Positions 57,524-60,279 of a DNA stretch of 64,000 bases are shown here, piece after piece. Position 1 is the first letter of the stretch. The number at the start of each line of letters is the position of its first letter. The stretch lies in NCBI RefSeq assembly GCF_024502345.1, contig NZ_JALDNN010000002.1. One strand, written 5' to 3'. Source of the stretch: Escherichia coli. GTDB taxonomy: Bacteria; Pseudomonadota; Gammaproteobacteria; Enterobacterales; Enterobacteriaceae. The position numbers were made by a program.

Positions 57524-60279
57524 TCAGGGACTTGTTCGCACCTTCCCTAATTGGTGTAAAAAAATGGGCGCAACAAAGCGCCCCAACAATAGAGTTTCAA
57601 ATTAATAAAAAGGTAATAAATAACATGAAGTTAAATTGAGAAGAGGCAATTTTATTGCCTCTTCAAAGGTGGCATGAGGGTGCCACCTATATGCGGGCAG
57701 TGACATCACTCCCTTCCCGCATATTCTTACCTACCAAAATTAGAATTGGTAGGTCATACCAACAGCAACGATGTTGTCGGTTGCAACGCCAGATTTTTTG
57801 GTAAAATCACTTTCATCGATCAGGTTGATCTTATAGTCAACGAAAGTGGACATATTCTTGTTAAAGTAATAAGTCGCGCCCACGTCGATGTATTCAACCA
57901 GATCCTGGTTACCGAACGCACCAATATTTTCACCGCGAGAGTGTAGGTAAGCGATGGACGGACGCAGGCCGAAATCAAACTGGTATTGAGCAACGGCTTC
58001 AAAGTTTTTCGCCTTGTTCGCGATATGGTCATCACCGAAGACTGTCATATTCTGAGTTTCAGAATAAGTTGTAGCCAGGTAAATGTTGTTTGCATCATAT
58101 TTCAGGCCCGTAGCCCATACTTCAGCAGTTTTACCAGAGGCATTCAGAGGGCTGGCTTTAGCATAGGATACCTGTCCATCAGTACGGTCAGATTTTGCAT
58201 AGGTTGCAGCAACGCCAAATCCTTCATAATCGTAAGTAGCTGACAGACCAAAGCCATCACCATTAGATTCAACTTCGTCGCGGCCTTTCCAGTTGTTCGC
58301 TTTTGCAGCACTATCATTTTTACCTTGATACTGCAAAGCAAAGTTCAGACCATCAACCAAGCCGAAGAAATTATTGTTACGATAGGTCGCGACGCCAGTA
58401 GCACGCTGGGTCATAAATACATCAGTCTGAGTCCAGGTATCTCCACCAAACTCCGGCAGCACGTCAGTCCAAGCGCCAACATCATAAGCTACACCGTAGT
58501 TGCGACCATAGTCGAGCGAACCATAATCGCCAAAGCGAAGCCCTGCAAACGCAAGACGAGTTTTATCTTTATCAGAACCTTCAGTTTCAGAACGGTTACC
58601 TTTAAATTCGTACTCCCACTGACCAAAACCGGTTAACTGGTCATTAATCTGAGTTTCACCTTTGAAACCCATACGAGCATAAGTTTTATCCCCGTCATCA
58701 CTAGCTGAAGAAGAGAAGTAATGCTTTGCATTAACTTTGCCGTACAGATCCAGTTTGTTACCGTCTTTGTTATAGATTTCTGCCGCTTGTGCAGACATTG
58801 CCATCAGGACTGATGCTGCAACCGCAGAAAGTGCCACTGTGATTTTTTTCATTTTTTTTCCTTTAGATTGAACTTTTCAACAGAAAAGAAGTCACTTAGG
58901 GAAGATGTTTATCTTTTTTTGATTTGCATTTCAAGTTTTTTAAATAAATATCGAGATATTTTCGTTATCATGATCACGAAAACACTGATGTAGCCCCCTG
59001 AAACACCGGACAGTAGCTGTATCTCCAGATAAGAGATAGGCTTGAATATATGTCTAACACTAACGCCAATTTTGAGATGACCGGGATCCTGTTAGGGCAA
59101 GAAGTCCGTAAACGTAAAACTCCTCAGGAGAAGATCGCCATTATCCAGCAGACGATGGAGCCGGGTATGAATGTCTCCCATGTCGCCCGCCTGCATGGTA
59201 TCCAGCCCAGCCTGCTGTTTAAGTGGAAGAAGCAATATCAGGAAGGCAGCCTCACCGCCGTTGCGGCTGGAGAGGAAGTCGTTCCTGCTTCTGAGCTTAC
59301 TGCTGCTCTGAAGCAGGTCCGGGAGCTTCAGCGCCTTCTGGGCAAGAAAACGATGGAAGTTGAGATCCTGAAAGAAGCCGTGGAGTACGGTCAGTCGCGA
59401 AAATGGATAGCGCACGCGCCCTTGTTGCCAAAGGACGGGGAATAGCCATGGTCAGCCGGACCATGGGCGTGTCGCGTGCGCAACTGTCACTGCGGATTAA
59501 CCGTTCTGCCGACTGGCAGGACAGGCGCTGTAACCGGCGTAATGAAGAAGCAGACGCAGAAATACTGTCGGCTATCCTCAACATTATCAGCGATATGCCG
59601 AGTTATGGTTATCGACGCGTGTGGGGCATCCTGCGCAAGCAACGTCGCACAGAGGGACAGCCACCTGTGAATGCCAAACGGCTTTACAGGATAATGAGCG
59701 AGCATAACCTGTTGTTGTTGCATCACAAACCAGAGCGACCGAAGCGTGAACATAAGGGCAAGATAGCGGTGGCAGAAAGCGATATGCGCTGGTGTTCAGA
59801 TGGCTTCGAGTTCGGCTGCGACAACGGCGAAAAACTGCGGGTAACGTTCGCGCTGGACTGCTGCGACCGTGAGGCCATAGACTGGGCAGCAAGCACGGGA
59901 GGCTATGACAGTTCGACCGTGCAGGATGTGATGCTGAGGTCGGTGGAAAAGCGCTTCGGCGACAGGTTGCCCGACACAGCGGTGCAGTGGCTGACGGATA
60001 ACGGTTCAGCGTATACCGCGTATGAAACGCGGAGGTTCGCGAGAGAGCTGAATCTGGAGCCCTGCACAACAGCGGTGAGCAGCCCGCAGAGTAATGGCAT
60101 GGCCGAACGGTTCGTGAAAACGATGAAAGAAGACTATATCGCGTTCATGCCAAAACCGGATGTGAGAACAGCACTGCGAAACCTTGCAGTAGCGTTCACG
60201 CATTACAATGAAAACCACCCGCACAGCGCGCTGGGATATCACTCCCCGAGGGAATACCGGCGGCAGCGGACATCGTTAA

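What the first reader, a model, noticed from the sequence alone, without database searches (positions are those of the whole stretch)
57740..58852. General porin gene isolated between IS5 and an IS3-family element
A complete OmpC/OmpF/PhoE-family porin with signal peptide lies between two insertion sequences on what is otherwise plasmid backbone. Mobile porin genes are uncommon and could alter outer-membrane permeability or phage receptor profile of the host.
Basis: partly seen in the sequence, partly recalled or inferred. Interest (0 to 1): 0.45.

Follow-up and report, generated by a model that had tools for sequence, protein, structure and literature searches.

The report
Phage P7 porin cassette stranded on plasmid
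The porin gene is real and intact, but it is the already-described nmpC porin of P1/P7-type phage-plasmids, left in a mosaic resistance plasmid by insertion-sequence rearrangements; its 3' untranslated RNA looks built to silence the host's own porins.

Summary
The ORF at 57740-58852 (minus strand, 370 aa) is confirmed as a complete general porin. It is not a captured ompC, ompF or phoE. It is 96.5% identical to NmpC of phage P7, 81-83% identical to the lambdoid phage porins Lc and NmpC, and only 61-65% identical to the K-12 porins. Its flanks are collinear with P7 between ssb and odaA, a known hot spot of P1-like phage-plasmids. IS5 (56353-57547) is a simple insertion with a CTAA duplication, 10 bp past the terminator's T-run. 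An IS2-group element (58986-60321) sits 133 bp upstream of the ATG. The neighbouring type I restriction island occupies the same hot spot in a P1-like plasmid. The same gene is in over 100 PLSDB plasmids, 113 of 5426 complete E. coli genomes and hundreds of viral contigs. So mobile porins of this kind are common, and this one is already known. The 184-nt 3'UTR is a structural homologue of IpeX, the Lc/NmpC 3'UTR RNA that represses OmpC and OmpF. It carries a MicF-like 12-mer complementary to the ompF ribosome-binding site. I infer a porin swap: the element's porin is made while host porins are repressed. Expression of this copy is untested.

The parts
56300..56352 (.). 53-bp remnant of the P1/P7 ssb 3' end and the ssb-nmpC spacer (P7 25289-25341). 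Its left edge is the junction with the type I R-M island at the ssb stop codon (CCATTTTGA).
   Evidence: 100% match to P7 and to the IncY plasmid pRHB16-C13_3; junction sequences compared.
56353..57547 (-). IS5, complete at 1195 bp, with a 338-aa transposase ORF at 56498-57514. It is a simple insertion flanked by a 4-bp CTAA target duplication (56349-56352 and 57548-57551).
   Evidence: Sequence read; P7 has a single CTAA at this site; the RefSeq twin is annotated as an IS5 transposase.
57556..57739 (-). 3'UTR of the porin gene, an IpeX-like structured RNA. It has SL1 57689-57724, SL2 57667-57688, SL3 57640-57664, an A/U-rich single-stranded stretch 57584-57639, a terminator stem 57566-57583 and a T-run 57558-57565.
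   Evidence: Fold z-score -6.7, with the same architecture as the PA-2 lc 3'UTR. A covariance model built from P7-type copies finds the PA-2 and DLP12 ipeX regions at E about 3e-15. 14 of 38 pairs show compensatory changes. Terminator scan.
57610..57631 (-). Predicted antisense seed ACUUCAUGUUAUUUAUUACCUU. It includes the 12-mer UUAUUUAUUACC (57612-57623), which is identical to the MicF seed, and it is complementary to the ompF Shine-Dalgarno, start codon and codons 2-3.
   Evidence: Duplex -31.0 kcal/mol against shuffles of -16.8 +/- 3.1 (0 of 300 as good). MicF-ompF scores -27.4 under the same calculation. The porin's own leader is not targeted. This is a prediction only.
57740..58852 (-). 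Porin CDS, 370 aa, NmpC/Lc-type general porin (P7 nmpC allele; protein identical to RefSeq WP_112921217.1). Signal peptide at 58784-58852.
58853..58985 (-). The retained 133 bp of 5' region: RBS AAAGGA (58859-58864), a conserved -35-like TTGAAA (ATG -82 to -77) and a CRP-like site CGTGATCATGATAACG (58963-58978, ATG -126 to -111). The CRP-like site is degenerate compared with P7's TGTGATTTTGATCACA.
   Evidence: Alignment with P7, IncY plasmids, the Rb-50 chromosome, PA-2 lc and DLP12 nmpC. The CRP site annotated in PA-2 record J02580 (1363-1383) aligns to this block. Coordinates. The generic promoter scan was not informative.
58986..60321 (+). IS2-group IS3-family element, 1336 bp, ends TGATGTAGCCCCC...GGGTCAAGATCA, orfA 59050-59445 and orfB 59403-60284. 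It is inserted 133 bp upstream of the porin ATG. There is no target duplication in the window, because its right flank has been replaced.
   Evidence: NCBIfam IS2 TnpA/TnpB and IS3-family hits. Ends read. In the ATCC 98082 plasmid the P1-like sequence resumes after the element.
60322..60927 (+). 5'-truncated ISKpn26-like (IS5-family) fragment: the C-terminal 150 aa of the transposase plus the right end, followed by CTAA. It marks the deletion that removed odaA/prt and the rest of the phage-plasmid upstream of the porin.
   Evidence: 99% identity to ISKpn26 copies in L002 and L009; sequence read.

Best explanation
This is the nmpC-type porin cassette of a P7/P1-like phage-plasmid: promoter region, porin ORF, IpeX-like 3'UTR and terminator, about 57556-58985. 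It has been left inside a mosaic, IS-rich, mcr-10-bearing plasmid. SHOWN: the ORF is intact and closest to P7 NmpC. Its flanks are collinear with P7 between ssb and odaA. IS5 is a simple insertion 3' of the terminator. An IS2-like element lies at -133, and a further deletion removed the rest of the phage-plasmid on that side. The 3'UTR is a structural homologue of the lc/nmpC ipeX region. INFERRED FROM FAMILY KNOWLEDGE: the protein is exported by Sec, assembled by BAM through its C-terminal Phe, and forms a trimeric 16-stranded general diffusion pore. INFERRED BY ANALOGY AND PREDICTION: the 3'UTR is transcribed with the porin and acts like IpeX. Through a MicF-like seed it pairs with the ompF translation-initiation region, and less strongly with that of ompC. 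The carrier cell would then replace its own major porins with the element's porin. That would change which phages, colicins and contact-dependent toxins can dock, and would change antibiotic permeability. Whether this truncated copy is still transcribed is not known.
For: Identity: 96.3% nt and 96.5% aa to P7 nmpC; 98-99% aa to alleles on IncY plasmids; 81-83% to PA-2 Lc and DLP12 NmpC; 61-65% to K-12 OmpC, OmpN, PhoE and OmpF. Context: window 56300-56352 plus 57548-58985 corresponds to P7 25289-26775 (blastn runs to 58980 against P7 itself and to 58985 against IncY plasmid copies), with IS5 and a CTAA duplication in between. In P7 and IncY plasmids the gene lies between ssb and odaA/prt. Contig L102 shows the un-rearranged order darA-prt-odaA-porin-IS5-SprT-HsdR-GmrSD at 99.98% identity. 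Function retained: all pore and assembly motifs are present and dN/dS is 0.04-0.5. The 3'UTR is 90% identical to copies whose CDS has dS of about 1.9. RNA. Seed-target pairing. [quoted passage not shown] 2006 from my own knowledge, paper not held). Literature naming the P7 porin gene nmpC in P1-like elements: PMC6906374.
Against: There are no expression data. Only 133 bp of upstream DNA survive, and the CRP-like site in this allele is degenerate, so the copy may be weakly expressed or silent. The RNA covariation rests on essentially two deep lineages, and the alignment was fitted to the model. The seed-target pairing is a duplex-energy prediction that ignores accessibility, and it was tested only against K-12 leaders. 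As I recall it, the 2006 paper reported no simple complementarity between ipeX and ompC; a 2025 review says regulation does not rely only on complementarity. P1 and P7 adsorb to LPS rather than porins, so self-exclusion cannot be the benefit. The Rfam MicF model does not match.
Confidence: 0.85

Rival explanations
1. A chromosomal ompC, ompF or phoE paralogue was picked up and mobilised as a composite transposon bounded by insertion sequences.
For: The gene is IS-flanked, RefSeq labels it 'porin OmpC', and IS5-family sequences lie on both outer sides (56353-57547 and 60322-60927).
Against: It is only 61-65% identical to the K-12 porins and falls below the PhoE and OmpF equivalog cut-offs. IS5 has its own CTAA duplication inside P7-like DNA, so it is a simple insertion. 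The second IS5-family copy is a 5'-truncated ISKpn26, and the IS2-like element belongs to a different family and has no target duplication. The same gene without these ISs sits in P7 and in IncY plasmids.
Confidence: 0.03
2. The copy is an inert relic. The IS2-like insertion at -133 and the loss of upstream DNA have silenced it, and it persists only because it was captured recently.
For: Upstream homology among relatives extends weakly to about -185, and that part is missing here. The CRP-like site has about three mismatches to the consensus half-sites, where P7's site is perfect. Related copies elsewhere have been hit by IS10 (pSvP1; PMC6906374), by IS5 (DLP12 and phage 434) or by frameshifts.
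Against: The ORF, RBS, conserved -35 block, CRP-like site, 3'UTR and terminator are all intact. The exact protein recurs in 959 collection blocks, and in the ten places read in detail IS5 lies 3' of it in eight and the IS2-like element 5' of it in three. This suggests the arrangement is tolerated and spreading, not decaying.
Confidence: 0.3
3. The porin matters only as a pore or as a surface receptor, and the conserved 3'UTR is merely a stabilising or terminating element with no trans-acting role.
For: Many abundant mRNAs have structured 3' ends. IpeX effects were originally seen on multicopy expression (my own knowledge of Castillo-Keller 2006). The pairing is only predicted.
Against: The single-stranded segment between SL3 and the terminator is conserved where synonymous sites are saturated. 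It carries a 12-mer identical to the MicF seed, and the lambdoid version carries a bipartite match overlapping the MicC site on ompC. Published work attributes OmpC loss in PA-2 lysogens to the lc transcript's 3' end.
Confidence: 0.35

Closest known systems
NmpC precursor of Enterobacteria phage P7 (AF503408, gene nmpC, 25531-26646), and its alleles on P1-like IncY phage-plasmids annotated 'porin OmpC' or 'ompD'
   Same: 96.5% aa and 96.3% nt identity over ORF plus flanks, with the same signal peptide, 3'UTR and terminator (the 3'UTR is 100% identical to P7). It comes from the same ssb-odaA position. The identical protein WP_112921217.1 occurs in two RefSeq plasmids.
   Different: There are 14 aa differences from P7, mostly in surface loops, and the protein is one residue shorter. 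Here the cassette is cut out of its phage-plasmid: IS5 lies after the terminator, an IS2-like element at -133, and odaA/prt are deleted.
Lc porin of lambdoid phage PA-2 and NmpC of the cryptic prophage DLP12 (qsr'), together with the IpeX RNA in their 3'UTR
   Same: 81-83% aa identity. The promoter block is homologous, with the annotated CRP site at the same distance from the ATG. The 3'UTR has the same SL1-SL2-SL3, single strand and terminator layout, is recovered by a covariance model at E about 3e-15, and shows compensatory pairs.
   Different: The carrier is different: a P1-like phage-plasmid hot spot, not the lambdoid late region next to the lysis genes. Loop 4 is longer. The 3'UTR is only 63% identical, with an 18-nt insertion. 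Its predicted seed resembles MicF (anti-ompF), whereas the lambdoid one resembles MicC (anti-ompC).
MicF (antisense sRNA of ompF) and MicC (antisense sRNA of ompC)
   Same: The 12-mer UUAUUUAUUACC is shared with the MicF seed. The predicted duplex covers the same ompF SD-AUG region with similar energy (-31.0 against -27.4). The logic of pairing a porin gene with a repressor RNA of another porin also matches micF-ompC and micC-ompN.
   Different: This is not a member of either family. No Rfam MicF or MicC match was found. The RNA is encoded in the 3'UTR of the porin mRNA and not as a divergent stand-alone gene, and its overall structure differs.
Chromosomal general porins OmpC, OmpN/OmpK37, PhoE and OmpF/OmpK35
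   Same: Same fold family and pore chemistry. Best solved-structure hits are OmpK37 (459 bits), then OmpC/OmpK36 (about 450), PhoE (438) and OmpF (400).
   Different: Identity is only 61-65%. The gene is not at any of those chromosomal loci. It has Q where PhoE has its anion-selectivity lysine (OmpF position 131), and it falls below the PhoE and OmpF equivalog cut-offs.

Membership tests
General bacterial porin family, OmpC-like subfamily (NCBIfam NF007841; Pfam Porin_1) | Whole-protein score above the curated cut-off | tested here: met
   532.8 bits against a cut-off of 484, covering model positions 6-368 of 368. Pfam Porin_1 and Porin_4 are recorded for the identical protein.
General bacterial porin family, OmpC-like subfamily (NCBIfam NF007841; Pfam Porin_1) | Cleavable signal peptide, loop-3 PEFGG constriction with a basic cluster facing acidic residues, and a C-terminal aromatic residue for BAM recognition | tested here: met
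   [36 protein letters not shown]16, R42, R82, R132, D113, E117 and D121 (OmpF numbering) all conserved; ends in YQF.
General bacterial porin family, OmpC-like subfamily (NCBIfam NF007841; Pfam Porin_1) | Trimeric 16-stranded beta-barrel that conducts small hydrophilic solutes | not testable with these tools
   Only inferred from full-length alignment to solved porins at E 1e-136. No structure was predicted and no conductance data exist.
True OmpC (orthologue of E. coli b2215) | High identity to OmpC and the chromosomal locus next to micF and rcsD | tested here: not met
   63% identity to K-12 OmpC, and the flanks are P7-like, not micF/rcsD. The RefSeq name 'porin OmpC' comes from a subfamily-level model.
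PhoE phosphoporin (NF007544 equivalog) | Score above the equivalog cut-off, and the anion-selectivity lysine (PhoE K125) | tested here: not met
   491.6 bits against a cut-off of 599. Q occupies the aligned position.
OmpF (NF007446 equivalog) | Score above the equivalog cut-off | tested here: not met
   461.2 bits against a cut-off of 583; 61% identity.
Phage-borne NmpC/Lc porin group (P7 nmpC type) | Closest relatives are phage-encoded NmpC/Lc porins, and the gene's flanks are collinear with a phage genome | tested here: met
   96.5% to P7 NmpC and 81-83% to Lc/NmpC. 42 phage records and 364 IMG/VR contigs encode relatives. Flanks equal P7 25289-26775.
IpeX-type 3'UTR RNA of phage porin genes | Located between the porin stop codon and its intrinsic terminator, with conserved secondary structure | tested here: met
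   Located at 57556-57739. The covariance model from P7-type copies hits the PA-2 and DLP12 ipeX regions at E about 3e-15, full length and as the only hits there. 95.9% of cells are paired, and 14 of 38 pairs changed on both sides against 2 or fewer in slid controls.
IpeX-type 3'UTR RNA of phage porin genes | Represses OmpC and OmpF synthesis post-transcriptionally | not testable with these tools
   Only predicted pairing to the ompF leader (-31.0 kcal/mol, 0 of 300 shuffles) and the ompC leader (-25.1, 8 of 300).
Composite (IS-bounded) transposon | Two copies of one IS, with usable outer ends, bounding the cargo, and one target duplication outside the whole unit | tested here: not met
   IS5 carries its own CTAA duplication on both of its sides. 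The other IS5-family copy is 5'-truncated. The IS2-like element is unrelated and lacks a duplication here.
MicF (Rfam RF00033) and GcvB (RF00022) | Match to the family covariance model at or above the gathering score | tested here: not met
   No MicF hit at E of 1 or below. GcvB scores 30.5 bits against a gathering score of 42, and the R1 seed region is missing from the alignment.

The most novel reading that the evidence does not exclude
The P7-type porin cassette may be a self-contained 'porin-swap' module. Its mRNA would encode a replacement porin, and its conserved 3'UTR would be, or would release, an IpeX-family RNA whose MicF-like seed (UUAUUUAUUACC, 57612-57623) blocks translation of host ompF and, more weakly, ompC. 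Lambdoid and P1-like phages would then carry sister RNAs with MicC-like and MicF-like seeds respectively, giving IpeX the base-pairing mechanism that the literature has lacked. On an mcr-10 plasmid this module would remodel the outer membrane alongside the lipid A modification.
Probability: 0.4. Interest if true: 0.5.

Novelty: already known. Interest (0 to 1): 0.3.

Why it matters
The porin itself adds little. It is a catalogued accessory gene of P1/P7-like phage-plasmids, and its presence here illustrates how IS activity strands pieces of phage-plasmids inside conjugative resistance plasmids. Automatic annotation calls it 'OmpC', which hides its phage origin; anyone inferring permeability or carbapenem phenotypes from porin gene content should treat it as an extra NmpC-type porin. 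The more useful lead is the 3'UTR. If the predicted MicF-like pairing is real, a plasmid-borne cassette could lower OmpF and OmpC in its host. That would affect beta-lactam entry, colicin and phage receptors, and contact-dependent inhibition. It would also give a testable mechanism for IpeX, whose mode of action has remained unclear since 2006.

Tried and rejected
1. Composite-transposon reading: rejected on the target duplications and the truncated second IS5-family copy.
2. Chromosomal co-assembly: rejected, because the identical block lies in complete circular plasmids.
3. The generic sigma-70 scan of 57500-59100 gave no more sites than shuffles, and its one minus-strand hit overlaps the RBS. 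It was uninformative.
4. The Rfam GcvB hit on the 3'UTR (30.5 bits, below gathering) is treated as an architectural resemblance. The GcvB R1 seed is absent, and the lambdoid ipeX regions do not hit the model.
5. RNAalifold on a plain MAFFT alignment mis-aligned SL1 and SL3 between the two RNA types and recovered only SL2. I replaced it with a covariance-model alignment.
6. Full-length duplexfold of the 3'UTR against the porin leaders gave non-physical whole-molecule duplexes and was discarded. I re-ran it with the single-stranded segment only.
7. Literature searches for 'nmpC' with 'phage P7' found nothing. One search failed on a short term. The IpeX paper (PMC1347279) is not held, so its content is cited from memory. 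Two P1-like plasmid papers mention porins only in a resistance context, and one does not mention the gene at all.
8. No structure prediction or large protein-database search was run. Solved homologues at E 1e-136 and the BLAST collections already answered the question.
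Full report
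OBSERVATION. It scores 532.8 bits (E 4e-160) against the NCBIfam 'porin OmpC' subfamily model, above the curated cut-off. It falls below the equivalog cut-offs for PhoE and OmpF. It aligns end to end with solved porins: OmpK37 459 bits, OmpC/OmpK36 about 450, PhoE 438, OmpF 400. The signal peptide, the PEFGG loop 3, the basic and acidic constriction residues and the C-terminal YQF are all present.

WHAT THE GENE IS. BLAST against phage records gives phage P7, where the gene is annotated 'nmpC, NmpC precursor', at 96.3% nt identity over 1445 bp including both flanks. Protein identities to the window porin are:
- 96.5% to P7 NmpC;
- 98-99% to alleles on IncY (P1-like) plasmids;
- 97% to a chromosomal copy in E. 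coli Rb-50;
- 81% to Lc of lambdoid phage PA-2, and 83% to the N-terminal 346 residues of DLP12 NmpC, which is interrupted by IS5;
- 61-65% to K-12 OmpC, OmpN, PhoE and OmpF.

So this is a phage-type NmpC/Lc porin, not a captured ompC, ompF or phoE. The RefSeq label 'porin OmpC' merely reflects a subfamily-level model. Pairwise dN/dS against relatives is 0.04-0.5, which indicates purifying selection.

HOW COMMON IT IS. The locus is covered at 80% or more in 112 PLSDB plasmids. It is present at 90% identity or more in 113 of 5426 complete E. coli genomes, mostly on plasmids (101 plasmid places). 42 phage records and 364 IMG/VR viral contigs encode relatives. The exact 370-aa protein is indexed in 959 blocks of the assembly collection and is RefSeq WP_112921217.1 in two complete plasmids. 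Venturini et al. [quoted passage not shown] The premise that mobile porins are uncommon does not hold for this family.

ANATOMY OF THE SURROUNDINGS. Window 56300-56352 plus 57548-58985 corresponds to P7 25289-26775. This runs from the last 9 bp of ssb to 133 bp upstream of the porin ATG; blastn against P7 itself stops at 58980, while IncY plasmid copies match through 58985.

IS5 (56353-57547, 1195 bp) interrupts this stretch and is flanked by CTAA on both sides, where P7 has one CTAA. It is therefore a simple insertion, 10 bp past the terminator's T-run.

On the other side, an IS2-group element (58986-60321, 1336 bp) is inserted at -133. In the E. coli ATCC 98082 plasmid NZ_CP034659.1, which shares an 8.5-kb block with the window (51783-60321, 99.98%), P1-like sequence resumes after this element with a 15-19-bp repeat. 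In the window, the right end of the IS is joined directly to an internal point of an ISKpn26-like element (60322-60927). A further deletion has therefore removed odaA, prt and the rest.

To the left, window 48484-56308 is a type I R-M/GmrSD/SprT island. In the IncY plasmid pZ1323CEC0011-3 the same island occupies the same ssb-odaA hot spot. Here its hsdR is split by an IS30 (51278-52498). Contig L102 shows the un-rearranged ancestor at 99.98% identity: darA-odaC-prt-odaA-porin-IS5-SprT-HsdR(intact)-GmrSD. Other contigs show the intermediate stages: IS5 lying between porin and ssb, and IS2-like followed by IS1.

The porin therefore does not sit in plasmid backbone. It is the best-preserved piece of a decayed P1/P7-like phage-plasmid hot spot, in a mosaic plasmid whose first 25 kb match mcr-10.1 plasmids. 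The composite-transposon idea fails on the duplications and on the truncated second IS5-family copy.

REGULATORY REGION. Upstream sequences of P7, two IncY plasmids, the Rb-50 chromosomal copy, PA-2 lc and DLP12 nmpC align well up to about -130 and diverge beyond. The retained 133 bp contain:
- the RBS;
- a TTGAAA hexamer (-82 to -77) that is conserved in all six relatives, PA-2 and DLP12 included;
- a palindrome at -126 to -111 that aligns with the CRP site annotated in the PA-2 record.

In P7 this palindrome is a perfect TGTGA-N6-TCACA. In the window lineage it is CGTGATCATGATAACG. The IS2-like element lies 7 bp beyond it. The core control region is thus present but weakened, and I cannot tell whether the copy is expressed.

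THE 3'UTR. Between the stop codon and the terminator lie 184 nt that are identical in the window, P7 and pRHB16. They are 90-96% identical in chromosomal copies whose coding sequence is only about 79% identical (dS about 1.9). This stretch folds into three hairpins, an A/U-rich single strand and a terminator (z = -6.7). The lc 3'UTR of PA-2 has the same layout (z = -8.9). [quoted passage not shown]

A covariance model built only from four P7-type copies recovers the PA-2 and DLP12 ipeX regions full length, at E about 3e-15, as the only hits in those loci. On the resulting alignment, 95.9% of cells are paired and 14 of 38 pairs changed on both sides, against 2 or fewer for slid controls. There are two caveats. 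The alignment is fitted to the model, and the changes trace to few lineages. I therefore file the 3'UTR as an IpeX homologue by position and structure; its activity is untested.

PREDICTED TARGETS. The single-stranded segment contains ACUUCAUGUUAUUUAUUACCUU (57610-57631). This is complementary to the K-12 ompF leader from the Shine-Dalgarno through codon 3. The duplex energy is -31.0 kcal/mol, against -16.8 +/- 3.1 for 300 dinucleotide shuffles, none of which was as good. Its core 12-mer UUAUUUAUUACC is identical to the MicF seed, and MicF-ompF scores -27.4 under the same calculation. Pairing with ompC is weaker (-25.1; 8 of 300 shuffles as good). The porin's own leader is not targeted (233 of 300).

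The lambdoid ipeX segment instead shows a bipartite match to ompC around -32 to -5, overlapping the MicC site (-26.7; 1 of 300). These are energy predictions without accessibility terms, made against K-12 leaders only. They also sit awkwardly with the published statement, as I recall it, that no simple complementarity explains IpeX. I report them as a hypothesis.

MECHANISM. The identity and history of the segment are shown. It follows from family knowledge that the product is a Sec-exported, BAM-assembled, trimeric general diffusion porin. I infer, at moderate confidence, that the cassette works like PA-2 lc plus ipeX. The carrier would make the element's porin while its 3'UTR lowers host OmpF and OmpC. 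That would change the receptors available to phages, colicins and CDI toxins, and would change small-molecule permeability. P1 and P7 themselves use LPS, so the benefit would be protection from other agents, not self-exclusion.

VERDICT. The porin is already known (P7 nmpC), and its IS-flanked state is an ordinary product of IS traffic in a mosaic plasmid. The one lead worth an experiment is the MicF-like seed in the IpeX-type 3'UTR.

Noticed in passing
window 18655-21717: A XerC-type recombinase gene (18655-19731) is followed by an MCR-10 family phosphoethanolamine-lipid A transferase: ORF 20050-21717, with the model matching from residue 17, at 1314 bits against a cut-off of 1250. The first 25 kb of the window match mcr-10.1 plasmids of Enterobacter ludwigii and E. 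coli at 99.9%. A colistin-resistance gene and an extra porin cassette therefore share this mosaic plasmid.
   Followed up: partly
window 48484-56308 (IS30 at 51278-52498): This type I R-M/GmrSD(DUF262)/SprT island is shared with the IncY P1-like plasmid pZ1323CEC0011-3, where it fills the same ssb-odaA hot spot next to a tyrosine integrase. Its right junction falls exactly on the ssb stop codon (CCATTTTGA in the window, CCGTTCTGA in the other plasmid), which suggests site-specific integration at the 3' end of ssb. In the window hsdR is split by IS30, leaving a 925-aa ORF where the intact gene encodes 1030 aa.
   Followed up: partly
window 57558-57744, minus strand: There is a sub-threshold Rfam GcvB match (30.5 bits, gathering score 42, E 3.4e-5 on 301 bp) spanning the whole model but lacking the R1 seed. 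The resemblance is strongest around GcvB's R2 region and terminator. P7 gives the same hit; the PA-2 and DLP12 ipeX regions give none. It is probably an architectural resemblance.
   Followed up: partly
L012 2587-2755 (PA-2) and L016 1364-1532 minus strand (DLP12): The single-stranded part of lambdoid ipeX (AACCUUCUGUUAUAU...CCUUUAUUU) is complementary in two blocks (15 and 9 bp) to the K-12 ompC leader across the MicC site and the Shine-Dalgarno (-26.7 kcal/mol; 1 of 300 shuffles as good). It shares GUUAUAU and CCUUUAUU with the MicC 5' end. As far as I recall, the literature says no simple complementarity was found.
   Followed up: partly
L001 13586-14955 (NZ_CP034659.1), compared with window 58986-60321: In the ATCC 98082 plasmid the IS2-like element is flanked by an unusually long direct repeat of the target (TGATCACGAAAACAC, 15-19 bp depending on how the ends are read). 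The 3-5 bp duplication usual for the IS3 family is not what is seen. The repeated target is the CRP-like palindrome of the porin promoter.
   Followed up: no
L004 (E. coli Rb-50 chromosome), L097 and L098 (chromosomal islands): The same cassette also occurs on chromosomes. A 96% copy lies next to ISEc16 in strains Rb-50 and SCEC020001. Copies at 78-79% nt identity lie in IS-rich islands, one of them beside tRNA-Phe and an integrase, and one is frameshifted. In these diverged copies the 3'UTR stays 90% identical, and one compensatory G-C to A-U change is visible in SL2.
   Followed up: partly
L016 (K-12 DLP12), phage 434 record OL657227 and window 56353-57547: IS5 turns up repeatedly at nmpC-type genes. 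It lies after codon 346 in DLP12 and in phage 434, and just after the terminator in the window lineage, where many assemblies share that exact insertion. This may simply reflect CTAA target sites in A/T-rich DNA.
   Followed up: no
window 36772-40367: A umuC (polymerase V subunit) gene lies at 36772-38043, and a group II intron reverse transcriptase/maturase ORF at 38880-40367. Together with several IS26, IS30, IS630 and IS3-family copies, they show how heavily mosaic the window is.
   Followed up: no
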